Below, piece after piece: positions 9,253 through 59,984 of a stretch of DNA of 64,000 nucleotides. Every line of letters starts with the position of its first letter. Position 1 is the first letter of the stretch. Source of the stretch: Desulfuromonadales bacterium (GTDB lineage: Bacteria > Desulfobacterota > JAENJC01); contig CAKKSC010000021.1 in assembly GCA_919902985.1 (NCBI GenBank), positions 29,676 through 93,675 on the forward strand, read 5' to 3'. The notes beneath the pieces are model-generated. The model was given only the letters and a program-made list of their open reading frames with translations, was not told where the DNA came from and ran no database searches. The position numbers and the translations under genes were made by a program.

Positions 9253-9334
9253 CCTCTCGCCTTCCTTGACAAACTCAAAATCCGTGGTAAGTTTTGTCAT
9301 CTTCTAACGAGGTCAACAATGGCACGCATTTTGA

Positions 9335-9382
9335 ACTCACTCACTCACTCACTCACTCACTCACTCACTCACTCACTCACTC
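9335..9382. repeat. Perfect tetranucleotide microsatellite (ACTC)12
   Basis: actcactcactc... runs uninterrupted for 48 nt in the intergenic region, ~80 nt after the 610-aa gene and ~240 nt before the second cheR. Confidence 0.95.
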
Positions 9383-9576
9383 ATAAAATCCACTCCTTAT
9401 TCATAATGAATCGAAAAGTAATTATATTCACGAATGGCACGAAGAAAAGAAATATGTTTTTCTATATCTCCCCTGACCTTACCCTCCGGGCATAAACTCT
9501 TTTCCAAACAGGGGAATATCGAAGATCATAGTAGCGGTACTCTTTACGGTTGCTAATTTGTTGGTGCAGGTATAAT

Positions 9577-9605
9577 GTAGGGGCGGGTTTGAAACCAGCC
9601 CCTAC
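9577..9605. repeat. GTAGGGGCGGG-loop-CCAGCCCCTAC hairpin (REP-like) in the 5' leader of the second cheR; a sister copy is at 59956..59984
   Basis: A near-perfect palindrome sits immediately after a TATAAT hexamer (9571..9576) and before the AAGAGG RBS. The same arm sequence recurs between panC and panD. Confidence 0.5.
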
Positions 9606-9624
9606 GTGCGCCGCAAGAGGATGT

Positions 9625-10533
9625 ATGGATGATAAACTACTACACCTGTTCAGGCGGCTCATATCGAGGAAGACCGGGATAGTGGTAAGGACGGAAGACT
9701 TAACGGCATTGGAGAAATGCATCTCCGCCCGGATTGCACTGTTGAGACTTTTAGAGCCGGTAGACTATCTCCGCCTCCTATCCGGCGATACATATGTGAG
9801 CAGGTGCGAGTGGAAGGAGCTTATAATCCCCCTGACAATCGGGGAGTCATTCTTCTTCCCGGACAAGGGGCAGTTTGAGGTTCTTAAGGAGAGGATACTC
9901 CCTGAGTTGATAGAGAAGAGAAAGGATGTCCGCTCTCTGCGGATATGGAGCGCAGGATGTTCCCGCGGGGAGGAGCCGTATTCGTTGGCCATCCTGCTGG
10001 ATGGGCTTTTACCAGACAGGAGAGACTGGAACATATCCATCGTAGGAACCGATATAAACGAGGATACCTTGGGGAAGGCGAGACTCGGAGCATATACACA
10101 ATGGTCTTTTCGTATGGTGGAGCAGGAGGTGCAGGGGCGTTATTTCAAGAGACGCAGGGATGAATGGGAGATTGATGAAAGGATAAGGAATATGGTGACC
10201 TTCAGTTATGGGAACTTGATAGAAGAGGCTTTTCCTAATCATGAGATATGCAATATGGACCTGATCATGTGCAGGAATGTATTTATCTACTTCAAGGAGC
10301 TGGTATTAACACAGGCGCAACTCTATGACCTCAATACAAAGCTTGAGGAGAAGGTGAAGGAGAGGACTGCGGCGCTGAAGGCGGAGATCGAGCAGCGTAA
10401 GGCCACTGAGGAGTCCCTGAAGAAGAGCGACGAGGAGCTCCGCAAAAGCCTCGATGAGGTGGAAAGGCTCAACAGGCTGATGGTGAATGGTGAAGAGGGA
10501 GTTCAGGATAGAAGAGCTGAGGAAGGAGAATGA
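9625..10533 (+). CDS. CheR-family methyltransferase with C-terminal signalling-helix/coiled-coil extension; the tail is frameshifted by a 7-bp tandem duplication
   Basis: RBS AAGAGG 5 nt before the ATG at 9625. The CheR motif is LRIWSAGCSRGEEPYSLAILL, followed by an ERT signalling-helix motif (KVKERTAALKAE). The conserved terminal motif continues in the +1 frame at 10487..10576. Confidence 0.8.
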   Translation: MDDKLLHLFRRLISRKTGIVVRTEDLTALEKCISARIALLRLLEPVDYLRLLSGDTYVSRCEWKELIIPLTIGESFFFPDKGQFEVLKERILPELIEKRKDVRSLRIWSAGCSRGEEPYSLAILLDGLLPDRRDWNISIVGTDINEDTLGKARLGAYTQWSFRMVEQEVQGRYFKRRRDEWEIDERIRNMVTFSYGNLIEEAFPNHEICNMDLIMCRNVFIYFKELVLTQAQLYDLNTKLEEKVKERTAALKAEIEQRKATEESLKKSDEELRKSLDEVERLNRLMVNGEEGVQDRRAEEGE

Positions 10534-10600: not shown

Positions 10601-11020
10601 CTACCGGCTTTCGATTATTATAGAGCTTATTTCATTTAGAACATCTTTTATAGATGGCATGGTTGCATCTATCACTTTGTTCTGAATGTGTTTATGGTGT
10701 GGGAATGAGCTGACTTCAGGATGATGTGAGGCATTGTCATAGCGGAAAATCATCTCTTTGTTCGAATTCATGTAGTGCAGGCGGTATTTAGTGATGACCA
10801 GGGCATTGCGAAAATTAGTGGCAAATATGGATATCTCAAGGGAAGAAGAATCGATAAATATGAGGTTCCCTTTTAGGTATACGGTGTTTCGAGGTCCGAA
10901 GTGTTTTTGGATGTTTGAGGATAAGACGATAGAGGAGGATGCAATGGTTTTATCTATTTCTTCTGCGAGCTTTTCAATCACCGTATTGCCGATTGAATGG
11001 CGGAACGGGTTTCCTGCCAT
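10601..11020 (-). CDS. Conserved hypothetical protein with an R-Y-D-N-A-x-H-H-P-E ... F-P-H-H-K-H motif (resembles DUF6516-type toxin-antitoxin-associated proteins)
   Basis: 139-aa ORF that overlaps the upstream 98-aa ORF by 43 nt. Family assignment is from memory of the motif only. Confidence 0.4.
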   Translation of the reverse strand: MAGNPFRHSIGNTVIEKLAEEIDKTIASSSIVLSSNIQKHFGPRNTVYLKGNLIFIDSSSLEISIFATNFRNALVITKYRLHYMNSNKEMIFRYDNASHHPEVSSFPHHKHIQNKVIDATMPSIKDVLNEISSIIIESR

Positions 11021-11274
11021 TCAGAAAGGAGTTTTGCGAAGGCATACCAGTCAAAGAAATCTGCTTCATCACCCATTTGGCCTGATTCAAACTTCTTCAG
11101 GAATGAAGGGGTGGTGAGATGGTATTTTTGCTCAAACTCTTTTACAGCCTTTTTGTAAAAGGCCATAGCGCTTGAATAGAGGCTGTATTCTCTCTTCAGG
11201 GAGGTTTTTATTTCATTTGTAAGCTGCATAATGAATTTATAGAGCAAATGGTCCGGCAAGTCAAGCAATAACAA
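10978..11274 (-). CDS. Small hypothetical protein, upstream partner of the 139-aa protein (possible two-gene addiction-like cassette)
   Basis: 98-aa ORF co-oriented with and overlapping the downstream gene. No recognisable motif. Confidence 0.3.
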   Translation of the reverse strand: MLLLDLPDHLLYKFIMQLTNEIKTSLKREYSLYSSAMAFYKKAVKEFEQKYHLTTPSFLKKFESGQMGDEADFFDWYAFAKLLSEWQETRSAIQSAIR

Positions 11275-11285
11275 ACGGAAGTTTT

Positions 11286-13019
11286 ATGCCATTCAAGATA
11301 CGGACAAAACTCATCTTTGCATTCCTTGCAATAATAATCCCGTACATGGTTATTTCAGGAACAATCTTCCTTTATAACATGAATATTATCTACAAGGGGG
11401 TCAACAAGGTTGAGGCCGTCGCCGGAGAGATGAAGAAGAGCTATAACCTTCAGCTTGCCCTGGATATGGCATTGATGCCTATCAACGACTACATAATCAC
11501 AGGCGAGAAGAGGTATATGGAAGAGTTTCGGAAGACATCTCTGGAAGTAGAGAGGTGGCTGAAGGAGTTGGAAGGGGAACTGGCCGGTCTGGAGGGGTTG
11601 TTCCCTGCCGAGGTAAAGGAGGAGAAGGAGATACTGAATGACATCAGGGCCTCATGGCAGAAGGTAAAGGAGATGTCGCTTGAGATATTTGCGATCCCAA
11701 ACCCGGTCGGCAATAGTGACGCCGCAAGGCTTATGGAGGATATGGACTATAAATTGGCTTACCCTGCCATAGAAAGGCTCAGGAGATGGCAGGAGATTGA
11801 TAAGGAGGAATACAGGGAGGCCCATGAAGAGTCTGAGAGGGCGTTGAGGCTGGTAGTGATAATCATGATTGCGGGCGGAGTCATATTGGCCTTCATCGGC
11901 GGCTTCTTTGCTATTTTCTATTCCAGGATGTTCGTCAGGCCGATAGAGACCATTCATGAAAGGGTAGACGCCATAGCCGGAGGGGATTTCAAGACGAGGC
12001 TAGATATAAAGACAGATGATGAGATTGAGCAGCTTGCAAACGCCGTGAACGAGATGGCCGCCCAGCTTGACTCTTTTACCTCAAACCTTCAGGGTATGAT
12101 TGAGGAGAGGACGGCGGAGCTGAGGGAGAGTGAGGAGCATTACCGGGGTGTTTTTGAAAAAACGCCAAATGCGATTGTGATTTTTGACGCAGAGACATTG
12201 CACTTTGAAAAGGTCAACCGCGGTGCAGTAGACCTTTATGGGTACACAGAAGAAGAGTTCCGCTCCCTGACCCCACCGGACGTCTCGGCGGAGGTGGAAA
12301 AGACCAGGAAAGCCGTACAAGACGGCCTTGCCGAGAAGTTTGCCCATGTCCCTGTACGGTATCATAAGAAGAAGGACGGGACGGTCTTCCCTATTGAAAT
12401 ATTCATGGGGACCTTTTTATCCAATGGACGCCAGAAGGGTTTTGCGGTCATAGTTGACCTTACAGCGATAAAAAAGAACGAGGAAATGTTAAAGGCGAGC
12501 GAGGAGCGGTTCCGCACCATTACAAATACCGCTGGCGATGCCATTATCTGTCTGGAGGCTCCCGGTAATATTAATTTATGGAATAAAAAGGCAGAGGAGA
12601 TGTTCGGATACACGGCAGATGAGGTGATGGGAAGGGATATGCATGACCTCATTGTCCCTGAAAAATACCGTGAAAAGGCCCGCGAGGGTTTGAAGGGATT
12701 TTTCCAGACAGGCGCAGGGCCTGTTGTCGGCAAGACCGTCGAGCTTACAGCCCTTCGTAAGGATGGGACGGAGTTCCCTATCGCCCTTTCCATCTCGGCA
12801 ATGAAGATACAGGAAGAGTGGCAGACCACAGGCATCATCAGGGACATCACCGAAAGGAAGAAGGCGGAGGATAAGATAAAGGAGCAGCTGGATCTCCTTA
12901 AACGGTTTGAGAAGGTGGCGATAGACAGGGAGTTCAGGATAAAGGAACTCCGGGATGAGAACGATTTGCTGAAAAAGAGGATTGGGGAGATGGAGAAAAG
13001 ATTCAAAACTAATGCATAA
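11286..13019 (+). CDS. Membrane-anchored sensor: TM helix - helical sensor region - HAMP - signalling helix - PAS - PAS - conserved C-terminal coiled-coil tag. No kinase, GGDEF or MCP output domain
   Basis: N-terminal hydrophobic helix and a second TM (VVIIMIAGGVILAFIGGFFAIFY). The HAMP region ends in DEIEQLANAVNEMA, followed by the ERT motif (IEERTAELRESEE). Two PAS folds follow. It ends in DREFRIKELRDENDLLKKRIGEME. Confidence 0.75.
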   Translation: MPFKIRTKLIFAFLAIIIPYMVISGTIFLYNMNIIYKGVNKVEAVAGEMKKSYNLQLALDMALMPINDYIITGEKRYMEEFRKTSLEVERWLKELEGELAGLEGLFPAEVKEEKEILNDIRASWQKVKEMSLEIFAIPNPVGNSDAARLMEDMDYKLAYPAIERLRRWQEIDKEEYREAHEESERALRLVVIIMIAGGVILAFIGGFFAIFYSRMFVRPIETIHERVDAIAGGDFKTRLDIKTDDEIEQLANAVNEMAAQLDSFTSNLQGMIEERTAELRESEEHYRGVFEKTPNAIVIFDAETLHFEKVNRGAVDLYGYTEEEFRSLTPPDVSAEVEKTRKAVQDGLAEKFAHVPVRYHKKKDGTVFPIEIFMGTFLSNGRQKGFAVIVDLTAIKKNEEMLKASEERFRTITNTAGDAIICLEAPGNINLWNKKAEEMFGYTADEVMGRDMHDLIVPEKYREKAREGLKGFFQTGAGPVVGKTVELTALRKDGTEFPIALSISAMKIQEEWQTTGIIRDITERKKAEDKIKEQLDLLKRFEKVAIDREFRIKELRDENDLLKKRIGEMEKRFKTNA

Positions 13020-13257
13020 GTAAGGCAAAAAGGAATGCAAGTTTTTCTCTTGAGATGCCTGCTTTTTTGAGGATGTTATGGAGGGTCCCTTTCTTAAGGG
13101 ACTTATTGGAGTGAACAGGGATGGGAATGGTTAAAGCGCCTTCTTCAGTCTGTTTCTGGTATATGCGGTGGCTGCCTGTCTGTCTCACAAAGACAAAGCC
13201 TTCTTTTTCAAGAGCCCTGCACAGTTCTTGTCCGCTGATTTGCGGCAACTTACCCAT
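13009..13257 (-). CDS. hicA: HicA-family mRNA interferase toxin
   Basis: 82 aa with the HicA hallmarks (ELCRALEKEGFVFVRQTGSHRIYQK...GTLHNILKKAGI). It overlaps the upstream hicB by 8 nt. Confidence 0.8.
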   Translation of the reverse strand: MGKLPQISGQELCRALEKEGFVFVRQTGSHRIYQKQTEEGALTIPIPVHSNKSLKKGTLHNILKKAGISREKLAFLFALLMH

Positions 13258-13477
13258 TTATGACAAGTTCCAGTTCCTTAACCTGATGCCCCTTGGCGAA
13301 ATGCGGTATATTTTCAAGGCCGACAACATCTACGTATCCATTTGCGGCGTCTTTGAGCATATAAACAGCCTCTTCAACGGTTTCGCCTTCTGTGGTGATG
13401 TCAAGTTCCGGGCAATATACAACGTAACCGCCTTCTTCAGCGGGGGTGAGCTCCGCAGTGATTTTTATCGTTGTCAT
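13250..13477 (-). CDS. hicB: HicB-family antitoxin (UPF0150-like)
   Basis: 75 aa (TIKITAELTPAEEGGYVVYCPELDITTEGETVEEAVYMLKDA), typical of the HicB N-domain. Lies immediately upstream of hicA. Confidence 0.75.
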   Translation of the reverse strand: MTTIKITAELTPAEEGGYVVYCPELDITTEGETVEEAVYMLKDAANGYVDVVGLENIPHFAKGHQVKELELVING

Positions 13478-20798: not shown

Positions 20799-21947
20799 TT
20801 ATGCCGGAGGTATGATAAAGCTTATCCTTGTTCCTTTACCGTATTCACTTTCGATACTTAACTTCCCACCCATTGATGCTACAAGATGCTTTACAATGGC
20901 AAGTCCCAGGCCGGTTCCGCCCAGTTCTCTTGAGCGGGCAGGGTCAACCCTGTAGAAGCGCTCACCGAGCCTCGGGATATCCTTTGGCGGTATTCCGGTC
21001 CCGGTGTCAGTGACGGAGATTTGTACTAACGCCCCAGAAGTTAAGAGGTTAAGAGGTTGAGAGGTTATTATTCGTGCGTTGATTCTCACTGACCCTTTCT
21101 CTGTGAACTTTATCCCGTTGTCTACGAGATTTAAAAGTATCTGAGCCAGCCTGTCCTTGTCAGAAAGGGCATGGACCCCTTTTTCAATATCCAGTTCAAG
21201 GTTTAGCCCCTTGGCCTTTGCCTTAGGTTCCAGGGTTGAAATAACCATTCTTGCCACTTCTTCGATCTCCACAGCCCTTATATCAAAGCTTACCTTACCG
21301 AGTTCGATGTTGGACAGGGTCAGGAGGTCTTCCACAAGCCTTGAGAGCCTGTCGGCATTCTCCTTTATTATATCAACAAACCTGGCGGCGTGTTCCTTGT
21401 CGTTAATGGCCCCTTCCTTCAACGTCTCAGCAAACCCTTTAATGGCGGTCAGCGGGGTCTTTAGCTCGTGGGATACATTGGCCACAAAGTCTATCCTCAT
21501 TGTCTCAAGTTTTTTGAGCAGGGTTATCTCATGGAAGACTATGACCGAACCGAGTCTTTCAGTATTGCGAATGAGAGGGGTCATTGTCACTGAGAGGCTT
21601 ACGGAATTAGGGGCAGCAATAGTTATTTCTCCGGTTACCGTCTCTCCCTTTTTACTCCCCTCCTCAATGATCCTGTGAAGCTCAGGGTTTCTTGATATCT
21701 CAACAACTCTTTTCTCAAGGAGTTCTTTGCCGAAAAGCTCTTCAGCCTTCCTGTTGGCCATTGTCACGTTCCCTTTGGGGTCCGTAACTATGACCCCCTC
21801 TTCCATACTGGCAAGGATGGCCTCTCTCTGCTCTTTTTCGTCTTTAAGCTTTTCCAGAGTGACCCTTAGTTCAGATGAGAGCCTGGAAAGCTCGGAATCT
21901 GGTTCTTTTTTTCCTGATGGGAAGAGCTTGGTAAACATATCTTTCAA
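20799..21947 (-). CDS. PAS-domain sensor histidine kinase (PAS - HisKA - HATPase_c), PhoR-like core
   Basis: H-box VANVSHELKTPLTAIKGF. N, G1 and G2 boxes are present (NLVDNGIKF, DTGTGI, GTGLGLAIV). Convergent with aspS with only a 7-nt gap. Confidence 0.85.
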   Translation of the reverse strand: MKDMFTKLFPSGKKEPDSELSRLSSELRVTLEKLKDEKEQREAILASMEEGVIVTDPKGNVTMANRKAEELFGKELLEKRVVEISRNPELHRIIEEGSKKGETVTGEITIAAPNSVSLSVTMTPLIRNTERLGSVIVFHEITLLKKLETMRIDFVANVSHELKTPLTAIKGFAETLKEGAINDKEHAARFVDIIKENADRLSRLVEDLLTLSNIELGKVSFDIRAVEIEEVARMVISTLEPKAKAKGLNLELDIEKGVHALSDKDRLAQILLNLVDNGIKFTEKGSVRINARIITSQPLNLLTSGALVQISVTDTGTGIPPKDIPRLGERFYRVDPARSRELGGTGLGLAIVKHLVASMGGKLSIESEYGKGTRISFIIPPA

Positions 21948-22191
21948 AAATATACCTTCGTCGGTTTTTTATGAAACTTGACAGTCATATTAATAACAGC
22001 TTTCCGTCCGCCGATTCTAAGTAGACTTTAGAGAATAAAGCATACTCTGTCAAGAAAAATGAACTGAAAAATGAGCTGAATTGTACTCCTGTTTCAGGGT
22101 AAATTTATCAACTTACCCACTTTGCAAAATTCCGCACCCGTGCTAAGCTTTCTCTGTAAAACTGGAGAAACAGTTATGGCACCTACCTTGC

Positions 22192-22230
<39 letters not shown>

Positions 22231-22334
22231 TTTGCCCTAGCGGCAAGTCTGTTGCGGATTTTGGAAATTCAAAAACCTCGGTTTCACCGGAGCAGCGGTG
22301 GCCGGGGTTTTTGTTTTTTAGGGCGGAGGGGTAC

Positions 22335-23987
22335 ATGAGCGTCAGGACGAAATTGATCTTAATGTTTGCGGGCATTGCTATGCTTGTCGGTATTGGCGCC
22401 TCCTTCTACGTCATATATGACCATTGGATAGAAGCCGATGAGCACGCTGCACGCCATGCTGAAGGCTCCGCCAGAGCCTTTGCCTTTGCCATGGTCTCCG
22501 AGGATCTATCAGCAAACTCCACACCCATATATAAATCTCCAGTGCAGCTACAGAATTTCATTACCGATCTGCACGCGAAACTCAAACAAGATATTGAGTT
22601 GGTGGATACCCAAAAGAAGATACTCGGAGACGCAATCCCCGAAGATGTGGGCACAGTACTTGACCATGATAGTAATGACGAAGTGGGGCAGACGATAAGG
22701 GACGGCATCACCAGGACGCTGATTGAAACAAGCGCGGATTATCCCCAGGGGATTCGTCAGATCGCAGTCCAGGTCAAGACGAAACAGGGGGAAGTAGTTG
22801 GCGCCCTCCTCCTTGAGTACACAAATGTTTATGACGAACACATTGCCGATGCAAAAAGAGAGATGCTCTATTTTTACATGGAAGCACTCATCTCGGTATT
22901 CATGGTCAGCCTGATCGGGTTTTGGTTCGCCAGAAGCATCACCAATCCGATTCTGAAGTTGGCCAAGGCGAGCGGCGAGATGGCAGCAGGCAATCTTGAT
23001 GTAATAGTGGAGGTTGCATCGAAGGACGAGATTGGCGACCTCGCCACGGCCTTTAACAATATGGTGGAATCGAGGAAGTTGGCAGAGAAAAAGGCAAGGG
23101 AGAGCGAAAACCGCTTCAGGAAACTCTTTGAAAACTCCAACGACGCCATCTTCATCAATGATGCAGAAACGAGCCGTATTCTCGATGTCAACGAGCGGGT
23201 GCTGAAAAACCTGGGATATACCAGGGAAGAATTACTGGCGATGAGGGTCACCGATATCGAGGCTACCCTGCCGGATAAATTCTCATGGGAAAACCACATG
23301 AGGGAACTCGACGCAGCGGGTTTCATGCTCCTCGAAGGCCGACACAGGAGAAAGGATGGCGTCGTATTCCCCGTTGAGATCAGTGTAAGGAACATTCAGG
23401 CGGAAGAGAAAAAGTTCAATCTTGCCATCGTCCGCGACATCACCGAGCGGAAAAAGGCGGAGGAAAAGCTATTGGAGAGCAGGAAGACGATAGAATCTGT
23501 CCTGAACGCTACCACTGACGCGCTGTTTCTGATAGATGCCGCAGGGAATATCCTTGCATTGAATGAAACAACCGCCGGGAGGCTTGCTAAAAAACCAGGG
23601 GAGCTTATCGGTTCCTGCATATATGACCATCTGCCTCCCGCTATTGCGCAGGCAAGGAAGGCGTATGTTGATGAGGCGATGCGCACCGGCAAAACCGTAA
23701 GGTTTGAAGATGAACACAATGGAGAGTGGCTGGACAACAGTATATTCCCTATCTCTGATGAACAGGGAAAGCTTGTAAGGGCTGTCATTTATGGCCACTA
23801 CATCACAGACCGCAAGAACGCGGAGAAGGAGCTTAAGGAAAAGTCCGCAAATCTTGAGAGGTTCAACAGGCATATGGTCGGCAGGGAGATGCGTATGCTT
23901 GAGATGAAAAAAGAGGTGAACGACCTCCTTGAGAGGCTGGGAGAGCCGAAGAGGTATGAATGGACGAAAGAGGGGGAATCTTCATGA
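22335..23987 (+). CDS. Membrane sensor: TM - periplasmic-type sensor region - TM - HAMP - PAS - PAS - conserved C-terminal coiled-coil tag. No enzymatic output domain
   Basis: GGAGGG RBS 4-5 nt before the ATG at 22335 (MSVRTKLILMFAGIAML...). The second TM is followed by HAMP (ITNPILKLAKASGEMAAGNLD...EIGDLATAFNNM). Two PAS folds follow. It ends in GREMRMLEMKKEVNDLLERLGE. The ORF is open from 22122. Confidence 0.7.
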   Translation: MSVRTKLILMFAGIAMLVGIGASFYVIYDHWIEADEHAARHAEGSARAFAFAMVSEDLSANSTPIYKSPVQLQNFITDLHAKLKQDIELVDTQKKILGDAIPEDVGTVLDHDSNDEVGQTIRDGITRTLIETSADYPQGIRQIAVQVKTKQGEVVGALLLEYTNVYDEHIADAKREMLYFYMEALISVFMVSLIGFWFARSITNPILKLAKASGEMAAGNLDVIVEVASKDEIGDLATAFNNMVESRKLAEKKARESENRFRKLFENSNDAIFINDAETSRILDVNERVLKNLGYTREELLAMRVTDIEATLPDKFSWENHMRELDAAGFMLLEGRHRRKDGVVFPVEISVRNIQAEEKKFNLAIVRDITERKKAEEKLLESRKTIESVLNATTDALFLIDAAGNILALNETTAGRLAKKPGELIGSCIYDHLPPAIAQARKAYVDEAMRTGKTVRFEDEHNGEWLDNSIFPISDEQGKLVRAVIYGHYITDRKNAEKELKEKSANLERFNRHMVGREMRMLEMKKEVNDLLERLGEPKRYEWTKEGESS

Positions 23988-24005
23988 AATATGGAGGGTT
24001 TTTAA

Positions 24006-25265
24006 ATGCTTAATACGGTAAAGGTCCCGGAACAGCTTGCGCCTCTGTTTGAAAAGGCCCAGGAGTACGTCGGGAGGTATTTTCAGGAAAGGAAGGAGGA
24101 CCCGTCTAAGGGGACTATCGAGATATTCGGGGAGCGGTACATACTTGTAAGGGCTGCCTCCATGTCCGTGGATTTTTTTGAGACTGTTTCAAAGCTGTAT
24201 GAAAAGGAGGGGGAAGAAGAGGGAAGAAATATTGCAAGGCAACTCCTTTTTGATATAGCCCATGCCATAGGCAAACAGGACGCCCGAAACTTCCATAAAA
24301 AGATGGAGCTGAAAGACCCCATCGAAAAGCTGTCTGCGGGGCCTATCCATTTTTCCCATACTGGTTGGGCCTTTGTTGATATCTTTGCGGAATCCAGACC
24401 TTCCTCAGACGAAGATTATTACCTCATCTATGACCATCCTTATGCCTTTGAGTCTGCCGCATGGATTGCATCGGGGAAAAAGAGCGACTTCCCTGTCTGT
24501 GTGATGAACGCGGGTTACTCATCAGGATGGTGCGAGGAGAGCTTCGGCATCCCCCTTGTGGCCTCGGAGATCATGTGCACGGCAAAGGGGGATGAAGCCT
24601 GCCGGTTTATCATGGCGCCGCCGTCAAGGATCGAAGGGCATATAGCAGACTACATGAAAAGGGAGCCGGAACTGGCAAAGAAGATCACAAGATACGAGGT
24701 GCCCGGTTTCTTCAAGAGAAAGGAGATGGAAGACGAACTGAAAAAGGCATACGAGTTTATGAACGCCATTATAAACGCCATCCCTTCGCCTTTTTACGTC
24801 ATAGATGCAGATGATTACAAGGTCAAGCTGGCCAACGCGGCATTTGGTCCAAGAGATGGATGGGAGGGGAAGACCTGTTATGATGTTACTCATCATAGGG
24901 ATGAACCCTGCACCGGCGAGCATGTATGCCCTCTCGCTGAGGTAAAGAGGACAAAGAGACCTGTGGTAGTCGAGCATATTCATTACGACGAGGACGGCAG
25001 GCCAAGACTATACGAGGTACACGGGTCTCCCATATTAGACAAAGACGGCAATGTCGTCCATATGATTGAGTACAATCAGGACATTACAGAGAGGAAGAAG
25101 ATGGAGGAATCTTTGAAAAAGGCCAATAAGGAGCTTCTGGATAAGACCACCCGTCTTGAGATGTTCCAGAAGATGACTATGGGGAGGGAGCAGAGGATAA
25201 TGGAGTTGAAGAAGGAAGTGAACGAGCTCCTTGAAAGGCTTGGCGAGCATAGGAGATATGAATAG
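24006..25265 (+). CDS. V4R-like (4-vinyl-reductase-type) ligand-binding domain - Cys-rich PAS domain - conserved C-terminal coiled-coil tag
   Basis: The N-terminal ~200 aa resembles the V4R/XylR-N fold (ERYILVRAASM...GWCEESFGIPLVASEIMCTAKGDEACRF). The PAS region carries a CxxxxxxxxCxxxxxC cluster (CYDVTHHRDEPCTGEHVCP). It ends in GREQRIMELKKEVNELLERLGE. Confidence 0.55.
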   Translation: MLNTVKVPEQLAPLFEKAQEYVGRYFQERKEDPSKGTIEIFGERYILVRAASMSVDFFETVSKLYEKEGEEEGRNIARQLLFDIAHAIGKQDARNFHKKMELKDPIEKLSAGPIHFSHTGWAFVDIFAESRPSSDEDYYLIYDHPYAFESAAWIASGKKSDFPVCVMNAGYSSGWCEESFGIPLVASEIMCTAKGDEACRFIMAPPSRIEGHIADYMKREPELAKKITRYEVPGFFKRKEMEDELKKAYEFMNAIINAIPSPFYVIDADDYKVKLANAAFGPRDGWEGKTCYDVTHHRDEPCTGEHVCPLAEVKRTKRPVVVEHIHYDEDGRPRLYEVHGSPILDKDGNVVHMIEYNQDITERKKMEESLKKANKELLDKTTRLEMFQKMTMGREQRIMELKKEVNELLERLGEHRRYE

Positions 25266-25353
25266 GGTTCTTTTTCATTCCAAATGGGTGATCTTTGGAT
25301 GTTAGTGTTTGAAATTCCTCCCCCCAGCGGGGGGAGGTTGGGAGGGGGGAAAG

Positions 25354-25821
25354 ATGGGGGAATTTACCACCGGCAATTCAGTAAAAAAGCTTTTTATTCC
25401 CCAGCCTGTGCCTGCTCCCCTTCTTGAGGCTGCCCGTAATATGAGAAAGGGGATGACAGATGCGAAGCAACTGTTATGGTTCTGCCTGCGCCGCAAGCAG
25501 ATTGGCGGGTTCAGATTTCGCAGGCAGCATCCGTTTGAGCGATTTGCCCTTGACTTCTACTGCTGCGAAGCAAAACTTGCGATGGAGCTTGACGGCGGGC
25601 ATCACAATGAAGTCGGCGTCCATGCCCGCGATAATGAGAGGACCGCAATCCTTGAGCATCATGGCATTAAGGTAATCAGATTCTGGAATAACGAGGTTTT
25701 TCGCAATATGGAGGGCGTATTGCAAACAATTTATGATACGTTGCTGGAGAGAACGACAAAGAACCCCCTCCCCGACCCTCCCCCGCTTGGGGAGGGAAAT
25801 GCATTTCCCCACTTTAAATGA
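25354..25821 (+). CDS. DUF559 / Vsr-like endonuclease-domain protein
   Basis: Has the pattern ARNMRKGMTDAKQLLW...FRFRRQHPFERFALDFYC...LAMELDGGHH...ILEHHGIKVIRFWNNEV. It is flanked on both sides by CCCCCTCC/GGAGGGGG-type GC-rich hairpins. Confidence 0.6.
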   Translation: MGEFTTGNSVKKLFIPQPVPAPLLEAARNMRKGMTDAKQLLWFCLRRKQIGGFRFRRQHPFERFALDFYCCEAKLAMELDGGHHNEVGVHARDNERTAILEHHGIKVIRFWNNEVFRNMEGVLQTIYDTLLERTTKNPLPDPPPLGEGNAFPHFK

Positions 25822-25855
25822 GAAAGAACTTGAATAGTCTAAAAAGGAGGCGGTC

Positions 25856-26398
25856 ATGAAAGGGATAGTCTTTAACCTGCTTGAGGAGTTCATCACTTCG
25901 ATGCTTGGCGAGGAGAAGTATGAGGAGATAGTTGCCGGATGCGACCTGAAGACAAAGGAGCCGTTTGTCGGCCCGGGCACATATCCCGACGAGGACCTGT
26001 TTGCAATCGTGGGCAAGACGGTTGCGGTAAGCGGGATTGCACTGCCTGATGCACTTCGTGGATTCGGCAGATTTTGTTTTCCGAGGCTGGCTGAAAAGTT
26101 CCCGGTGTTTGTGACTGCCCATAATCATCCGAAACCGTTCCTCAAAAGCGTGGAGACCGTAATACATGTTGAGGTAAAAAAACTCTATCCTGATGCAGTG
26201 CTGCCCTCTTTCACCTATGACAACCCTGCCCCTGATAGGCTCATCATGAGATATTCATCTAAAAGGAGGCTCTGTCATCTCATGGAAGGGTTGATTGACG
26301 GAGTCGCCGAATATTACAAAACCCCAATCAGGCGCAGGCAGACAAAGTGTCTGCTGGAAGGGGGGAATGAGTGCGAGTTTGAGCTGAGCTTTGGTTAA
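25856..26398 (+). CDS. Stand-alone H-NOX (heme nitric oxide/oxygen-binding) sensor domain protein
   Basis: AAGGAGG RBS. The N-terminus MKGIVFNLLEEFI matches the H-NOX start. A proximal His-Pro pair is in VETVIHVEVKKLYPDAVLP. The heme-propionate-binding Y-x-S-x-R motif is present as RYSSKRR. Confidence 0.8.
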   Translation: MKGIVFNLLEEFITSMLGEEKYEEIVAGCDLKTKEPFVGPGTYPDEDLFAIVGKTVAVSGIALPDALRGFGRFCFPRLAEKFPVFVTAHNHPKPFLKSVETVIHVEVKKLYPDAVLPSFTYDNPAPDRLIMRYSSKRRLCHLMEGLIDGVAEYYKTPIRRRQTKCLLEGGNECEFELSFG

Positions 26399-50073: not shown

Positions 50074-53000
50074 TGTTTCACCTCGCTTTTTGTCGCCTCA
50101 TTTACCACCAGCGGAAGAAATGCGCTCCCCCCGATAACAAGACCGTCAACAATGCTTAACGGAGCAATTCCAAGGAGACCTCGCAACCCCGGCACTACAA
50201 GGGTCAATCCCTGCAATGCAAAGGAACCGGCCAGGGCGGCGTTCAGATAGCCGTTGGACTGCATGCCCGATCCGGGGGCACTATCGAAGATCCCATGTGT
50301 CTCCGACCTGCAGCTTAACGCATGAAGAAGCTGTCCGGAGGTCAGACTCATAAATGCCATGGTGCTTGCCTGCGGCCCAATTCCATACCTCATAATGCCG
50401 TATCCATATGCGCTGAGGGCCCCGGCTGAAAGCACTGAGGACTCGAAGAAAATCCGCTTGAAATCAGAACTCTTTACAATCGGCTCATCGGGGTCCCTTG
50501 GGGGGCGTGTAAGAACGTCCGGTTCCGGCGGCTCCATTGCCAGGGCAAGGCCTGGCGCTATATCGGACATGATATTGATCCATAAGAGCTGAATTGCGCT
50601 CAACGGCTCTCCAAAGCCTCCGGCGATAGATGTGAACATGACCGTTATCTCACTGATATTCGTGGAAAGAAGGAAATGGACAGACTTCCTTATGTTGTGG
50701 TAGATGGTCCTCCCCTGACTTATGGCAATGATCATGGTTTCAAGGTTGTCATCCTCAATCACGACATCCGCAACCTCGCGGGCTACATCGGTTCCGGTCT
50801 GCCCCATGGCTATCCCCACGTCTGCTGCTTTCAAAGCCGGGCCGTCGTTAATCCCGTCACCCGTCATGGCGACAACCTTGCCGGCCCTTTGAAAGGACTG
50901 GACTATCTGGAGCTTATGGGCCGGACTGACCCTGGAGAAGACCCGGACCCTCTCGCACAGGGCCGTCAACACCTTGGGATCCATTTCTTTCAGGTGGGAA
51001 GAGTCAAGTATCTCAAGCTGCTCCTCCATGCTGAGATTCAACTCTTTCCCGATAGAGTAGGCGGTGGGGCTCTGGTCGCCGGTGATCATGACCGTATCAA
51101 TACCTGCTGCATGGAATTTGCCTATCAGTTCTTTAACGCCTTTACGGACAGGGTCTGCCATGCCTACAAGGCCCAGCCATATAAGGTCGTATGAGGTCGA
51201 GAGGTCGAGAGGTTGAGAGGTTGAGAACTCCTCATCATCACAGATTCTCAACTTCTCATCTTCTGAATGAGTATAAGCCATGCCGAGAACCCGCAATGCA
51301 TCCCCTGCCATGCGCTCATTCACAGTCTCTATAGAGAAACGGTCGTTGTCGGTCAAAGGAAGTTTTTGGCCGTCTTTTATAAACCAGTTACATTGAGAGA
51401 GCACCTCATTGGGGCTCCCCTTTACCGCCGCCAAAAGTCTCTGTCCACCTGTCCCTTCTGCTGATGCATGATAGGAAACCATGTAGTTGCGGTTTTCGGA
51501 GCGGTGGACCATCCTGGTCAGCGGAAATTTCTTCCTTAGGCGGTCTATATCAACGCCGGTGCTGATTGCCATATGCAGCAGCGCATTCTCGGTAGACGAA
51601 CCGTTCAGGATGTATTCTCCATCGTTCATGGTTACCTCACTCTCATTGCACAGTACTGATATATGAATTAACCTGAGCAATTCGTCGTTGGAGTAAGGAT
51701 TTACGATGCCGTTTCCGGAAACAAAATTATTTTCAGAGATCCTTATATGTTTCATTCCGGTGTGTATTGCAACAACCGACATCCTGTTCATGGTAACGGT
51801 CCCTGTCTTGTCAAGGCAGATGGTCTGGACCGCACCCAGCGCCTCCACAGCGTCAAGATGCCTTATCAGGACGTTGTGTCTGCGCATCTTTCGAATGCCT
51901 AAAGCCAGGGTGGTTGTTGCGACCGTTGGAAGACCTTCCGGAACTGCGGCAACGGCCAGGGATATGGCAGACTTAAACATATGAAGAAAACCGTATCCTC
52001 TAAGAATGCCTGCAATGAATACTATGCCGCACACACCGCCGCAGATAAGCACTATTTGAGTGCCTATAGTATCAAGTTGTTTTTCCATGGGAGTTTGAGG
52101 AGGCCTTGTCCCGCCGACCAGGATTTGAATCATCCCTATCTCTGTATATCTGCCGGTGGCAATAATCACAGCCAGCCCCTGTCCGCCGGTAACGAGGGTC
52201 CCCATGTAGACGATGTTCGTCCTGTCCGCAAGAGGGATATTCTCGTCGGATGCAATAATTTCAGCCGTCTTGATAGCAGGCATACTTTCGCCTGTGAGGG
52301 CCGATTCGTCGACGCTTAAGTGTGTGGCCTCTATAAGTCTGGCATCTGCTGCCACATAACTTCCAGGTCTAAGGACAATAATGTCGCCAGGCACAAGTTT
52401 ACCGGCATTTATATTAGTGTAAAGGCCGTCTCTTATAACAATGGCTGACGGTCTGACAAGGCTCTTAAGGGAATGGATCGTCCTTTCCGTCTGCATTTCG
52501 GTAAAATACCCTATGGCCGCATTTATGCCTACTACACCAATTATAACCGCCGCATCAGCCACTCCTCCGGTAAAAATGGATATGCCAGCGGCCACTCCCA
52601 GGAGCGCTACAGGCAAAGATTTAAACTGTTCAAACAGCACGCTGAGCCCGGAGCGCGGGACAGACTCAGGGAGAAGATTCGGGCCGAATCTTTTTGTCCT
52701 GTCACTGACCGATTCAACAGTTAATCCGTTTTTCCGGTCAGTACCCATCAGATCAAGGACCTGGGCAGTACCCATAAGGTGCCAGGCTTCTACCGGCTGT
52801 TCCTGAGCACTGTTAATCAGCTTTCTGAGGGCCGGTCTGCCTGTTATCGGGGAGAAGCCAACTAACTTTTCCCCCCCTTTAGAAAAAGGGGGAGAGGAGG
52901 GGTTTGGTGTCTCAGGATTACTATTGTTGAAATAATCAATTACTACGCTTTCAAGGAGAGATGCAATGTCATTGGATGTATTCCCGGAGTTGAAGAGGAC

Positions 53001-59114: not shown

Positions 59115-59959
59115 AGGTCATTGAATACATTCATGAGATGAAAGAGGCATCTCAGGCCTTGAGAGCTGAGGGTAACAAGATATCCTTTGTCCCTACAATG
59201 GGCTATCTTCACCAGGGTCATCTGAGCCTGTTGAAGAAGGGGAGAGATGTTGGTGATCTCCTTGTTATGAGCATATTTGTAAACCCTGCCCAGTTTGCCA
59301 AAGGCGAAGACTTTGAACGATATCCCAGGGATTTTGAGAGAGATAAAAAGATGTGCGAAAGCGAATCTGTAGATATCCTCTTTCTTCCTAACGCCAGAGA
59401 GATATACCCTGATGGATATCAGACATATGTTGAAGTTGAGGGGGTCACAAAAAACCTTTGTGGAACCTCAAGACCTGGGCACTTCAGGGGCGTGGCAACT
59501 GTGGTGACTAAGCTGTTTAATATCGTCAGGCCGCATTATGCGATATTCGGGGAGAAGGACTTTCAGCAGTTAGTTACGATAAAGAGGCTTGCACTCGACC
59601 TGGATATGGATGTGGATGTCATCGGGATGCCGATTGTCAGGGAGGCCGACGGCCTTGCAATGAGTTCCAGGAACAGTTATTTGGGCCAGGAAGAGAGGGC
59701 GGCAGCCGGAAGCATCTACAGGGCTATTCAGCGGTCAAAAGAGGTGTTTGATGAAGGGGAAAGGTCTGCCGGGATACTCTTGAACGAGGCCAGGAAAGTG
59801 GTGGAAATCAGTCCCCTTATCGAGCCGGAATATGTTAAACTGGTAAATATGGGGACAATGGAAGAGGTAGACAGGGTTGAGAATGAGGCCCTGCTGGCCA
59901 TTGCTGTGAGGATTGGGAAGACAAGGCTGATAGATAATATTATATTACGGAAGGCGTAG
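59111..59959 (+). CDS. panC: Pantoate--beta-alanine ligase (pantothenate synthetase)
   Basis: HIGH-like motif VPTMGYLHQGHLSLL and overall PanC pattern. 282 aa. Confidence 0.9.
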   Translation: MKVIEYIHEMKEASQALRAEGNKISFVPTMGYLHQGHLSLLKKGRDVGDLLVMSIFVNPAQFAKGEDFERYPRDFERDKKMCESESVDILFLPNAREIYPDGYQTYVEVEGVTKNLCGTSRPGHFRGVATVVTKLFNIVRPHYAIFGEKDFQQLVTIKRLALDLDMDVDVIGMPIVREADGLAMSSRNSYLGQEERAAAGSIYRAIQRSKEVFDEGERSAGILLNEARKVVEISPLIEPEYVKLVNMGTMEEVDRVENEALLAIAVRIGKTRLIDNIILRKA

Positions 59960-59984
59960 GGGCGGGTTTCAAACCCGCCCCTAC
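59956..59984. repeat. Perfect 12-bp-stem hairpin GTAGGGGCGGGT-ttcaa-ACCCGCCCCTAC overlapping the panC stop codon (REP-like; sister of 9577..9605)
   Basis: The palindrome is read directly from the sequence. No U-tract follows it, so it is not a canonical intrinsic terminator. Confidence 0.6.

What the first reader, a model, noticed from the sequence alone, without database searches (positions are those of the whole stretch)
9335..9382. Perfect (ACTC)12 tetranucleotide tract in the regulatory region of the second CheR
Seen in sequence: there are twelve uninterrupted ACTC units (the complement reads GAGT/AGTG). They lie between the 610-aa gene stop and the promoter-like TTGCTA-15-TATAAT at 9552..9576 of the second CheR.

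Established knowledge: perfect tetranucleotide tracts of this length are hypermutable by slipped-strand mispairing. They are classic contingency-locus switches (for example AGTC, CAAT and GACA tracts in Haemophilus and Neisseria), and they are rare in bacterial genomes by chance.

Inference: repeat-number changes could modulate transcription of the second CheR or read-through from the upstream operon.
Basis: partly seen in the sequence, partly recalled or inferred. Interest (0 to 1): 0.55.

Follow-up and report, generated by a model that had tools for sequence, protein, structure and literature searches.

The report
Repeat tract fused to sigma-54 promoter
A perfect 12-unit ACTC repeat starts directly after a sigma-54-type promoter motif in front of a chemotaxis methyltransferase gene. 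The same promoter-plus-repeat arrangement occurs a second time in this window and in 52 other bacterial genomes, and I found no description of it in the searchable literature.

Summary
In detail: (ACTC)12.25 lies at 9335-9383, and nothing like it appears in shuffled sequence.

The only other microsatellite in the window, (ACAG)9.75 at 22192-22230, begins at the same offset after TGGCACCTACCTTGC.

A scan of 185,579 species genomes for this motif followed by (ACNN)n gave 70 loci where about 4 are expected. Sixty-nine are simple-sequence repeats, from 52 genomes in several phyla. Motif positions the search left free follow the sigma-54 consensus.

The true orthologue, a cheR-TPR operon at 77% protein identity, keeps the same cassette. 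There it has TGGTAT at -24 and only 3.5-4.5 ACTC units, 52 nt before the start codon. An independent assembly of the same population differs from the window by exactly one ACAG unit across 4.65 kb.

Best reading: the tract is the first transcribed sequence of a sigma-54-type cheR2 promoter, a hypermutable 5' leader. The promoter assignment rests on sequence only. The -12 element is GA rather than GC, and no rpoN or activator gene lies in the window. A sigma-70-like promoter plus small upstream ORF is a serious rival. What the repeat does to expression is unknown.

The parts
9266..9293 (+). Sigma-70-like promoter: TTGACA, 16 nt, then TGgTAAGTT (extended -10).
   Evidence: Read. The paralogous ACAG locus has TTTGCA-N17-TGcTAAGCT, and the 14-nt motif CCGTGNTAAGNTTT matches exactly only at 9282 and 22138. 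The orthologue keeps it as TTTACA...TGaTACGTT. The -10 hexamer matches TATAAT at only 3 of 6 positions, so the scan tool does not list it.
9309..9321 (+). GAGG Shine-Dalgarno-like motif plus ATG 9319. This would start a 58-codon upstream ORF (9319-9495) that runs through the tract and overlaps the TGG of the sigma-54 motif.
   Evidence: ORF list and translation MARILN(SLTH)4.... The orthologue has GAGG and GTG at the same place. SD-like motifs are enriched only in a subset of tetranucleotide loci.
9320..9334 (+). Sigma-54-type -24/-12 promoter motif TGGCACGCATTTTGA (GG at -24, GA instead of GC at -12).
   Evidence: Pattern search. It differs by one base from the Salmonella intergenic sigma-54 ChIP site STM0649.S, TGGCACGCCTTTTGA (PMC3844500). 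The orthologue has TGGTATGCATTTTGA. The same motif precedes repeats in 69 other loci.
9335..9383 (+). (ACTC)12.25 perfect tetranucleotide tract. It would span about -11 to +38 of the predicted sigma-54 promoter.
9384..9624 (+). Remaining leader before cheR2. About 190 nt are absent from the orthologue.
   Evidence: The predicted fold of 9346-9640 is not exceptional (z = -1.7), and no terminator was found.
9577..9605 (+). GC-rich palindrome GTAGGGGCGGGTTTGAAACCAGCCCCTAC, REP-like, just upstream of the cheR2 ribosome-binding site.
   Evidence: Inverted-repeat search. A second copy lies at 59956-59984.
9625..10533 (+). cheR2: a 302-aa CheR-family methyltransferase lacking the TPR domain of its orthologues.
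   Evidence: Pfam CheR. It is 100% identical to NCBI 'MAG: CheR family methyltransferase [Deltaproteobacteria bacterium]' and 77-82% identical to 475-480-aa CheR-TPR proteins over 79% of its length.
22177..22191 (+). Second sigma-54-type motif, TGGCACCTACCTTGC, a perfect match to the search pattern.
22192..22230 (+). Sister tract (ACAG)9.75, starting at the same offset from its motif.
   Evidence: An independent assembly (L218) has exactly one unit fewer, with 0 mismatches over 4,653 nt.
22231..22319 (+). Body of the ACAG transcript: one hairpin that pairs the last repeat units with AGUCUGUUG, then an intrinsic terminator (about 22264-22319). The T-run ends about 16 nt before ATG 22335.
   Evidence: RNA fold of 22203-22320 gives -46.8 kcal/mol, z = -5.6, with 0 of 200 shuffles as stable. 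Terminator criterion met.
22335..23987 (+). HAMP-PAS-PAS signalling protein directly downstream of the ACAG element.
   Evidence: Pfam.

Best explanation
The ACTC tract is the initial transcribed region of a sigma-54-type promoter that serves cheR2.

Proposed steps (all inferred unless marked otherwise):
- RNA polymerase with sigma-54 would bind TGGCAC-N5-TTGA at 9320-9334.
- After activation by an enhancer-binding protein that has not been identified, it would start about 12 nt downstream of the -12 element, near 9345-9347, inside the tract.
- The RNA would therefore begin with about 9-10 ACUC units. This is a G-free tail that does not pair with itself, followed by a roughly 240-nt leader and cheR2.
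- The tract starts at -11. Gain or loss of units by slipped-strand mispairing therefore leaves the -24/-12 spacing and the sequence around the start site unchanged. Only the length of the single-stranded 5' tail changes.
- I infer that this tunes transcript fate in a graded, heritable and reversible way, through 5'-end-dependent decay, Rho or RNA-binding-protein access, or sRNA pairing. It would not act as an on/off switch.

Shown here: the exact juxtaposition, its recurrence, the conserved link to cheR genes, and unit-number variation in the sister tract and in homologues.

Inferred: sigma-54 dependence, the start site, and any effect of unit number on expression.

The element is one of two in this window and belongs to a recurrent architecture seen in several phyla: sigma-54 motif, then a perfect AC-initiated repeat, then either a terminator (34 loci) or a gene.
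For: 1. Both microsatellites in the 64 kb begin one base after a sigma-54-type motif. These are the only two + strand matches at one mismatch or fewer.
2. A scan of 596 Gb of species-representative genomes for TGGCAC-N5-TTG-N-(ACNN)4-AC gave 70 loci. About 4 are expected from 1.2e12 positions times 4^-19. Sixty-nine are simple repeats starting right after the motif, with units AC, ACTC, ACAG, ACCT, ACCG, ACTG, ACGC, ACTT, ACCC and ACCA. The one non-repeat hit is in an actinomycete. Two more, (ACAT)n and (ACGG)n, turned up in viral contigs.
3. Positions the pattern left free follow the sigma-54 consensus YTGGCACGr-N3-TTGCW: T before TGGCAC in 40 of 70, G after it in 44, a purine next in 60, and C completing TTGC in 61. 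For the consensus and real examples, including a TTGA site, see PMC3844500.
4. No other simple repeat of 18 nt or more exists in the roughly 0.5 Mb of loci plus window. None of 139 (ACTC)>=7 tracts from eukaryote-dominated metagenome contigs has the motif within 120 nt.
5. The orthologous cheR-TPR/cheW/MCP/cheA operon (77% identity) keeps the cassette at about 84% identity over 75 nt. Its -24 element is TGGTAT, the -12 region is identical, the tract is (ACTC)3.5 or 4.5, and the ATG follows 52 nt later. A cheR-TPR gene in L060 (57% identity, E = 2e-91) has motif, (ACAG)11 and a terminator. Other downstream genes include an MCP (L066) and a CheW (L046).
6. Unit number varies. ACAG is 9.75 versus 8.75 units with 0 mismatches in 4.65 kb. 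All 13 homologous locus pairs differ in unit number.
7. Thirty-four loci have a hairpin plus T-run 46-213 nt (mostly under 130 nt) after the tract. The window's ACAG RNA folds with z = -5.6.
Against: - The -12 element is TTGA, not TTGC. Only 2 of the 70 tallied sites, one of them this tract, have A there.
- No rpoN, no GAFTGA-type activator and no obvious upstream activator site lies in the 64 kb. Activator genes are adjacent in only 2 of 70 loci.
- There are no transcript data, so the start site is unproven.
- A sigma-70-like extended -10 promoter, an SD-like GAGG and an ATG/GTG overlapping the motif are conserved in both window loci and in the orthologue. The 25 nt between that -10 and the sigma-54 motif are almost invariant. 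A pure sigma-54 model does not explain this.
- The genome scan fixed both the zero spacing and the AC start. Their generality rests only on the two window loci and the orthologue.
- The ACTC tract itself shows no length difference between the two assemblies that span it.
- Close relatives of the upstream gene lack the element entirely. cheR2 here is truncated and relocated, so relaxed selection could explain the expansion.
- All 52 genomes are metagenome-assembled or from enrichments.
Confidence: 0.5

Rival explanations
1. The tract lies inside a small upstream ORF. A sigma-70-type promoter (9266-9293) gives a transcript starting near 9299. GAGG (9309-9312) and ATG 9319 start a leader peptide, MARILN(SLTH)n. 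Each 4-nt unit change shifts the frame and moves the stop codon. This would alter translational coupling, or ribosome-dependent melting of downstream hairpins or terminators, and so switch expression of the downstream gene. Under this reading the sigma-54-like motif is coding sequence in this lineage.
For: - The -35 and extended -10, an SD-like motif and an ATG or GTG are present at both window loci and in the orthologue. The spacer sequence differs between the paralogues, yet the SD motif is retained.
- SD-like motifs are enriched before the NTG in 10 of 26 tetranucleotide loci, against 12% in control windows.
- In the orthologue the 14-codon uORF stops (TAA) immediately before a hairpin, GGCCU-UCGG-AGGUC, that sequesters the cheR SD.
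- In the window, ATG 22176 is in frame through the ACAG tract and the terminator into the HAMP-PAS gene. The one-unit variant in L218 breaks that frame.
Against: - Across all 70 loci the base before TGG is T in 40, A in 14, G in 8 and C in 8. TTG would then be the commonest start codon, which is implausible.
- Dinucleotide-repeat loci, including Bacteroidales and Treponema, show no clear SD enrichment.
- After most tracts no frame stays open for long, and many loci end in a terminator 60-90 nt later.
- The peptide is not conserved between window and orthologue (MAR versus VVC), whereas both versions keep TGGYAY as sigma-54 requires.
- In the window all three uORF frames stop at least 130 nt before the cheR2 ribosome-binding site, so coupling is not possible there.
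Confidence: 0.25
2. Neutral microsatellite expansion. A short proto-repeat, (ACTC)3-4, in the ancestral cheR promoter grew by slippage after the cassette and a truncated cheR were relocated next to the che cluster. Under this reading the tract has no function of its own.
For: - The orthologue has only 3.5-4.5 units.
- cheR2 in the window has lost the TPR domain and its cheW/MCP/cheA partners and sits at a synteny break.
- The leader has gained about 190 nt, including a REP-like palindrome.
Against: - Long perfect tracts at exactly this promoter position recur in 52 genomes and in multi-copy families that keep the same unit. Drift alone would not produce this.
- The window contains no other microsatellite apart from the sister tract in the same configuration.
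- The cheR2 ORF is intact and identical across several samples.
Confidence: 0.12
3. The tract lies upstream of the real cheR2 promoter (TTGCTA-15-TATAAT, 9550-9576). It modulates that promoter, or read-through from the upstream che operon, through its length.
For: The two hexamers exist. The tract lies between the upstream gene and cheR2 on the same strand.
Against: - The tract ends 167 nt upstream of that -35. This is too far for a spacing effect, and no operator or activator site is evident.
- The hexamers lie in leader sequence that the orthologue lacks, and the 15-nt spacer is poor.
- The conserved signals are all upstream of the tract.
- Synteny with the upstream operon is not conserved.
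Confidence: 0.08

Closest known systems
Moraxella catarrhalis uspA2 (AGAT)n tract in the 5' untranslated region (Attia and Hansen 2006, cited in PMC4679880; PMC7302503)
   Same: A perfect tetranucleotide repeat lies between promoter and start codon. It is transcribed, its copy number differs between strains (6-23), and expression changes gradually with unit number rather than switching on and off.
   Different: That system has a sigma-70-type promoter, sits in a host-adapted pathogen and controls a surface protein. Its tract is not fused to the promoter element. Here the tract starts at -11 of a sigma-54-type motif, in a groundwater MAG labelled 'Deltaproteobacteria bacterium' by NCBI, in front of a chemotaxis methyltransferase gene. 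No expression data exist.
Helicobacter pylori tlpB leader G-repeat targeted by the sRNA RepG (PMC8295292)
   Same: A length-variable simple repeat lies in the mRNA leader of a chemotaxis gene, and its length sets the level of post-transcriptional regulation gradually (abstract listed).
   Different: That repeat is a homopolymeric G tract recognised by a C/U-rich sRNA. Here the window holds no RNA complementary to (ACUC)n beyond chance, and the promoter type differs.
Haemophilus influenzae 5'-UTR simple-sequence-repeat phase variation involving RNase III (PMC12721329)
   Same: An intergenic repeat acts through transcription, 5'-UTR structure and mRNA processing (abstract listed).
   Different: The unit size, promoter class and organism differ. 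That mechanism depends on a structured UTR element, whereas the ACUC tail here is predicted to be unstructured.
Sigma-54-dependent small RNAs (Qrr1-5, GlmY/GlmZ; PMC3045617)
   Same: A sigma-54 promoter drives a short transcript that ends at an intrinsic terminator. For glmY/glmZ this is combined with a sigma-70 promoter. The window's ACAG element and 34 other loci have this outline.
   Different: Known sigma-54 sRNAs have no simple-sequence repeat at their 5' end. Their activator genes and binding sites are known and often adjacent. No Rfam family matches here.
Intergenic TAACTGA heptamer repeats of marine Beggiatoaceae (PMC4679880)
   Same: Arrays of short direct repeats lie upstream of many genes in environmental bacteria, with a proposed post-transcriptional role.
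   Different: That is a single fixed heptamer in a few lineages with no link to a sigma-54 motif. Here the units are diverse and share a fixed promoter junction.

Membership tests
Simple-sequence-repeat contingency or rheostat locus | A perfect short-unit tandem tract long enough to slip (about 5 or more tetranucleotide units) | tested here: met
   12.25 perfect units.
Simple-sequence-repeat contingency or rheostat locus | Unit number differs between otherwise near-identical genomes or reads | tested here: inconclusive
   ACTC tract: 12 units in the window and 12 plus one stray C in the error-prone long-read assembly L210. Short-read contigs break inside the tract. The sister ACAG tract has 9.75 versus 8.75 units with 0 mismatches in 4.65 kb. 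The orthologue has 3.5 or 4.5 units.
Simple-sequence-repeat contingency or rheostat locus | Unit number changes expression of a linked gene | not testable with these tools
   Needs reporter fusions or expression data.
Sigma-54-dependent promoter | GG at -24 and GC at -12 with fixed spacing (TGGCAC-N5-TTGC) | tested here: inconclusive
   TGGCACGCATTTTGA has a perfect -24 element and correct spacing, but GA instead of GC at -12. A Salmonella intergenic ChIP site has the same TTGA. The sister locus matches perfectly.
Sigma-54-dependent promoter | The genome encodes RpoN and at least one enhancer-binding protein, usually with an upstream activating site | tested here: inconclusive
   None is encoded in the 64 kb. 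The rest of the genome could not be fetched. All taxa carrying the module belong to groups that I recall commonly encode rpoN; this was not checked here.
Sigma-54-dependent promoter | Transcription starts about 12 nt downstream of the -12 element and depends on rpoN | not testable with these tools
   No transcript data.
Leader peptide (uORF) with a frame-shifting repeat | Start codon with a Shine-Dalgarno motif and a promoter upstream of it | tested here: met
   TTGACA-N16-TGgTAAGTT, GAGG and ATG 9319. The orthologue keeps the equivalents.
Leader peptide (uORF) with a frame-shifting repeat | One reading frame links uORF translation to the downstream start (coupling) or encodes a conserved peptide | tested here: not met
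   In the window all three frames stop at 9385-9495, at least 130 nt before the cheR2 ribosome-binding site. The peptide differs from the orthologue (MAR versus VVC).
Terminated small RNA gene | Promoter, short transcript and an intrinsic terminator | tested here: not met
   No terminator lies between 9384 and 9624. The sister ACAG element does meet this feature.
RepG/tlpB-type sRNA-targeted leader repeat | A trans-acting RNA complementary to the repeat | tested here: inconclusive
   Sites complementary to (ACUC)3 or (ACAG)3 outside the tracts occur at about chance level in the window. The rest of the genome was not searched.
Any Rfam RNA family | A match at the family's gathering score | tested here: not met
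   No match in the window. In 20 related loci the only matches were tRNA, tmRNA and one neighbouring TD-2 RNA.

The most novel reading that the evidence does not exclude
A sigma-54 -24/-12 element fused at -11 to a perfect, hypermutable AC-initiated repeat may be a distinct and widespread genetic module. It is seen here in 52 genomes of Bacteroidota, Spirochaetota, Desulfobacterota, Nitrospirota, Planctomycetota, Pseudomonadota and other phyla.

Under this reading the module produces RNAs with a repeat at the 5' end, either small terminated transcripts or mRNA leaders. The number of repeat units is heritably adjustable while the promoter itself is protected from the instability.

The module also occurs inside restriction-modification genes of three unrelated families. 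This raises a further possibility: sigma-54 holoenzyme sitting in its stable closed complex, which distorts DNA at -12/-11, might itself nucleate or maintain repeat expansion immediately downstream.
Probability: 0.35. Interest if true: 0.85.

Novelty: new variant of a known kind. Interest (0 to 1): 0.72.

Why it matters
Repeat-driven contingency loci are known almost entirely from host-adapted pathogens and from sigma-70 promoters or coding regions. Here the same kind of hypermutable tract is joined, base for base, to a sigma-54-type promoter in free-living and gut bacteria of several phyla. It sits in front of chemotaxis genes, surface-protein genes and small-RNA-like transcripts.

If confirmed, three things follow:
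- It would add a heritable, reversible tuning layer to a promoter class usually regarded as tightly signal-controlled.
- It would define a class of RNAs whose 5' domain is a repeat array.
- It would give a simple sequence rule (TGGCAC-N5-TTGC followed by a repeat) for finding such loci in metagenomes.

It would also pose a mechanistic question that can be tested directly: why does the repeat begin exactly where sigma-54 starts to melt DNA?

Tried and rejected
1. Length polymorphism of the ACTC tract.
- A metagenome scan for both flanks with 7-14.5 units between them found nothing.
- Logan short-read contigs from at least 7 runs all end inside or next to the tract.
- The 120-kb Hainich contig that shows the ACAG variant was never returned for genes near the ACTC tract.

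2. Orthologues of the upstream TIGR04442 gene at 63-82% identity (L082-L087, L208, L209). None has cheR2, a repeat or a sigma-54 motif downstream. The upstream gene is therefore not the conserved partner.

3. An unbiased repeat-to-promoter test. These are dominated by eukaryote-like compound microsatellites, and 0 of 139 tracts have the motif. This serves only as a negative control.

4. Rfam: no family matches.

5. Activator genes next to the module: only 2 of 70 loci.

6. Trans targets complementary to the repeats within the window: at chance level.

7. A gap-tolerant scan of viral contigs for the motif followed by (AC)9: no hits. How general the zero offset is remains untested.

8. Literature: eight full-text searches combining sigma-54 or RpoN with repeats, microsatellites, contingency loci or small RNAs found no description of this arrangement.

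9. An assembly artefact or host-microsatellite chimera is rejected. Flanks downstream of the tracts are conserved among paralogues and orthologues. Long-read chromosomes are among the hits. Independent assemblies of the window's population agree.
Full report
**Observation**

The window contains (ACTC)12.25 at 9335-9383, perfect and without indels. Even four units with one mismatch never arise in 100 dinucleotide-preserving shuffles.

The tract is intergenic. Upstream, a che cluster runs HEAT-repeat protein, CheR, CheB and a 610-aa TIGR04442-family protein that ends at 9252. Downstream lies a second CheR-like gene, best started at ATG 9625 (302 aa; CheR SAM-binding domain only).

Short-read Logan contigs from several sequencing runs reach the tract from both sides and stop inside it. 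A long-read assembly spans it. The tract is therefore real.

Tandem Repeats Finder reports only one other microsatellite in the 64 kb: (ACAG)9.75 at 22192-22230, also intergenic and on the + strand.

A search for the sigma-54 core TGGCAC-N5-TTGC with one mismatch allowed gives just two + strand hits:
- 9320-9334, TGGCACGCATTTTGA
- 22177-22191, TGGCACCTACCTTGC

Each ends exactly one base before a tract begins. Sigma-54 promoter elements are centred at -24 and -12 relative to the start site (PMC3844500). The tracts would therefore span about -11 to +38 (ACTC) or +28 (ACAG), and transcripts would begin inside them.

**Is the juxtaposition general?**

I scanned one genome from each of 185,579 prokaryotic species with TGGCAC-N5-TTG-N-(ACNN)4-AC. 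About 4 matches are expected by chance (1.2e12 positions times 4^-19). Seventy loci were found.

- Sixty-nine are simple-sequence repeats that start right after the motif. Units are AC, ACTC, ACAG, ACCT, ACCG, ACTG, ACGC, ACTT, ACCC and ACCA, with 4.5 to 55 units.
- The single non-repeat hit is in an actinomycete.
- The 69 loci come from 52 genomes: Bacteroidales, Treponema, Desulfovibrio and other 'Deltaproteobacteria', Nitrospirota (including Ca. Magnetobacterium casense), Brocadiales, Phycisphaerae, marine Pseudomonadales, WOR-3, Sumerlaeota and Clostridiales.
- Two further cases, (ACAT)n and (ACGG)n, are in viral contigs.

Positions the pattern left free follow the sigma-54 consensus:
- T before TGGCAC in 40 of 70
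- G after TGGCAC in 44 of 70
- a purine next in 60 of 70
- C completing TTGC in 61 of 70

The window's TTGA variant differs by one base from the Salmonella intergenic sigma-54 ChIP site STM0649.S.

The roughly 0.5 Mb of fetched loci plus window contains no other repeat of 18 nt or more. None of 139 (ACTC)>=7 tracts from a metagenome scan has the motif within 120 nt; those tracts are mostly eukaryote-like compound microsatellites.

Limits of this survey:
- The pattern imposed both the zero spacing and the AC start. Their generality rests on the two window loci and the orthologue described below.
- All hits are MAGs or enrichment genomes.

**What lies downstream**

In 34 loci a hairpin plus T-run follows the tract, 46-130 nt downstream in most of them.

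The window's ACAG transcript (22203-22320) is predicted to fold far better than shuffles (z = -5.6). Its repeats form a single-stranded 5' tail. One hairpin pairs the last units with AGUCUGUUG. A long terminator follows, and its T-run ends about 16 nt before the ATG of a HAMP-PAS gene.

The ACTC leader (9346-9640) has no terminator and an unremarkable fold (z = -1.7). It carries a REP-like GC palindrome at 9577-9605, which has a second copy at 59956-59984.

Downstream genes elsewhere include an MCP (L066), a CheW (L046), surface or secreted proteins, an ECF sigma factor and an ABC ATPase.

**Link to cheR**

L060 (Deltaproteobacteria bacterium GWC2_42_11) carries TGGCACTAACCTTGC, then (ACAG)11, then a terminator. 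A CheR-TPR gene follows that is 57% identical to cheR2 (E = 2e-91), then CheW, a binding protein and an MCP.

The closest full-length relatives of cheR2 are 475-480-aa CheR-TPR proteins at 77-82% identity. Seven contigs carrying one of them, P0123, show the true orthologue of the window's cassette:

TTTACA...GTGaTACGTT ttgtcatcttctgacgaggtcaaggg TGGTATGCATTTTGA ACTCACTCACTCAC

The cheR-TPR ATG follows 52 nt later, and then cheW, an MCP and cheA.

- Identity to window 9260-9334 is about 84%.
- The two changes in the -24 element (CAC to TAT) keep the sigma-54 form TGGYAY.
- The tract has 3.5 units in six contigs and 4.5 units with one interruption in the seventh.

The cassette is therefore the promoter and leader of a cheR operon. 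The window's lineage has expanded the tract to 12 units, gained about 190 nt of leader, and carries a truncated, relocated cheR. Relatives of the upstream TIGR04442 gene at 63-82% identity lack the cassette altogether.

**Hypermutability**

For the ACTC tract, I obtained only one other assembly that spans it. It also has 12 units, plus a stray C in an indel-rich long-read assembly.

For the sister tract, a 120-kb SPAdes contig from another Hainich groundwater sample is identical to window 20831-25487 except for one 4-nt gap. That is 8.75 against 9.75 ACAG units.

All 13 pairs of homologous loci in other genomes differ in unit number, for example 12/21/23, 9/11/14 and 18/32.

**Mechanism**

The best-supported reading is as follows. 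The tract is the initial transcribed region of a sigma-54-type promoter. Because the repeat begins at -11, slippage changes neither the promoter spacing nor the sequence around the start site. It changes only the length of a G-free, unstructured 5' tail of the RNA.

By analogy with two known systems, I infer a graded effect on RNA fate rather than an on/off switch:
- M. catarrhalis uspA2, which has an (AGAT)n tract in its 5' UTR
- H. pylori tlpB, whose leader G-repeat is targeted by the sRNA RepG

That step is inference. Sigma-54 dependence and the start site are also inferred.

Evidence against this reading:
- The -12 element is GA.
- The window holds no rpoN, activator gene or upstream activator site.
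- Activator genes are adjacent in only 2 of 70 loci.

**The main rival**

Both window loci and the orthologue also keep three other features:
- a sigma-70-like promoter (perfect -35 in the window, TG-extended weak -10) about 30 nt upstream of the sigma-54 motif
- an almost invariant 25-nt segment between the two
- an SD-like GAGG/GGAG and an ATG or GTG that overlaps the TGG of the motif

This defines a small upstream ORF that runs through the tract (MARILN(SLTH)4..., 58 codons), whose frame would shift with every unit.

In the orthologue its stop codon abuts a hairpin that sequesters the cheR SD. In the window's ACAG locus it is in frame through the terminator into the downstream gene, and the one-unit variant breaks that frame.

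Against this as the general explanation:
- TTG would be the commonest start codon across the 70 loci.
- SD-like motifs are enriched only in a subset, 10 of 26 tetranucleotide loci.
- Most loci have no long open frame after the tract.
- The peptide is not conserved, while the sigma-54 form of the motif is.
- In the window, none of the three frames ends near the cheR2 ribosome-binding site.

The two models are not mutually exclusive. glmY and glmZ combine sigma-70 and sigma-54 promoters (PMC3045617).

**Comparison with what is known, and novelty**

Tetranucleotide tracts that tune expression from a 5' UTR are known, as are sigma-54-dependent small RNAs. Eight full-text searches and two Rfam scans found no description of a repeat fused to a sigma-54 motif.

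I rate it a new variant of a known kind. Its distribution outside pathogens and its fixed junction make it more interesting than an ordinary contingency locus.

An unexpected extra: five of the motif-plus-repeat hits lie inside restriction-modification ORFs of three unrelated families (type ISP, HsdS, N6/N4 methylase), all in the same frame. This suggests that the link between motif and repeat operates at the DNA level. It leaves open the possibility that bound sigma-54 holoenzyme promotes repeat formation.

**Verdict**

The regulatory-region placement and probable hypermutability hold. The promoter assignment and the geometry do not.
- Interest is 0.72. Confidence in the sigma-54 leader model is 0.5.

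Noticed in passing
window 22177-22319: A second module of the same kind: a sigma-54-type motif, (ACAG)9.75, a structured RNA body and a terminator, directly before a HAMP-PAS gene. An independent assembly (L218) has one unit fewer.
   Followed up: yes
window 9577-9605 and 59956-59984: Two copies of a 29-nt GC-rich palindrome, GTAGGGGCGGGTTT(G/C)AAACC(A/C)GCCCCTAC. One sits just upstream of the cheR2 ribosome-binding site and the other just after the pantoate ligase stop. It looks like a REP-type element (0.18 matches expected by chance).
   Followed up: partly
window 9275-9286 and 9323-9334: A 12-nt inverted repeat, TCAAAATCCGTG / CACGCATTTTGA (11 of 12 complementary). It ends just before the sigma-70-like -10 hexamer and overlaps the sigma-54 motif. 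In the orthologue L234, the two C-to-T changes in the second arm would still allow G-U pairs. Its meaning is unknown.
   Followed up: partly
L015, L053, L069, L028, L063 (genome-contig loci): The same motif plus repeat lies inside restriction-modification ORFs of three unrelated families: type ISP (ISP_coupler/N6_Mtase/Type_ISP_C), type I HsdS, and an N6_N4 methylase. All are in the same reading frame (xxT GGC ACx xxx xTT GCA C..).
   Followed up: partly
L012-L081 as a set: None of the 52 genomes carrying the module is a cultured isolate. All are MAGs, apart from the enrichment genome of Ca. Magnetobacterium casense. Several genomes hold families of 3-5 copies with the same unit, for example Desulfovibrio Md513_bin130 with (ACCT)n four times.
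   Followed up: no
L014, L025, L034, L048, L057, L060, L062, L081 and both window loci: A purine-rich Shine-Dalgarno-like motif lies 5-12 nt upstream of the NTG that overlaps the sigma-54 motif. It is present in 10 of 26 tetranucleotide loci, against 12% in control windows. The sigma-54 model does not explain it.
   Followed up: partly
L037 2443-2530 (-): An Rfam TD-2 RNA (RF03162, 51.1 bits) lies about 100 nt upstream of the Treponema sigma-54 motif plus (AC)26 module.
   Followed up: no
window 21036-21067 and 51193-51226: Imperfect period-8 tandem repeats lie inside ORFs: (AGAGGTTA)4 in a histidine kinase gene and (GAGGTCGA)4.2 in a P-type ATPase gene. A period of 8 is unusual for coding sequence.
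   Followed up: no
window 10601-11274 and 13009-13477 (- strand): Two toxin-antitoxin-like pairs, a TumE toxin with a 98-aa partner and a HicA-like toxin with a 75-aa partner, flank the HAMP-PAS gene next to cheR2. This fits a recently rearranged region.
   Followed up: no
window 24006-26398: A XylR_N-V4R-PAS protein lacks the AAA+ sigma-54-activation domain usually attached to these sensor domains. It is followed by a DUF559 endonuclease-like gene and an HNOB-V4R protein. No complete enhancer-binding protein is encoded in the window.
   Followed up: partly
L024, L030, L054: Compound tracts: (AC)n runs directly into (TC)n or (CT)n after the sigma-54 motif.
   Followed up: no
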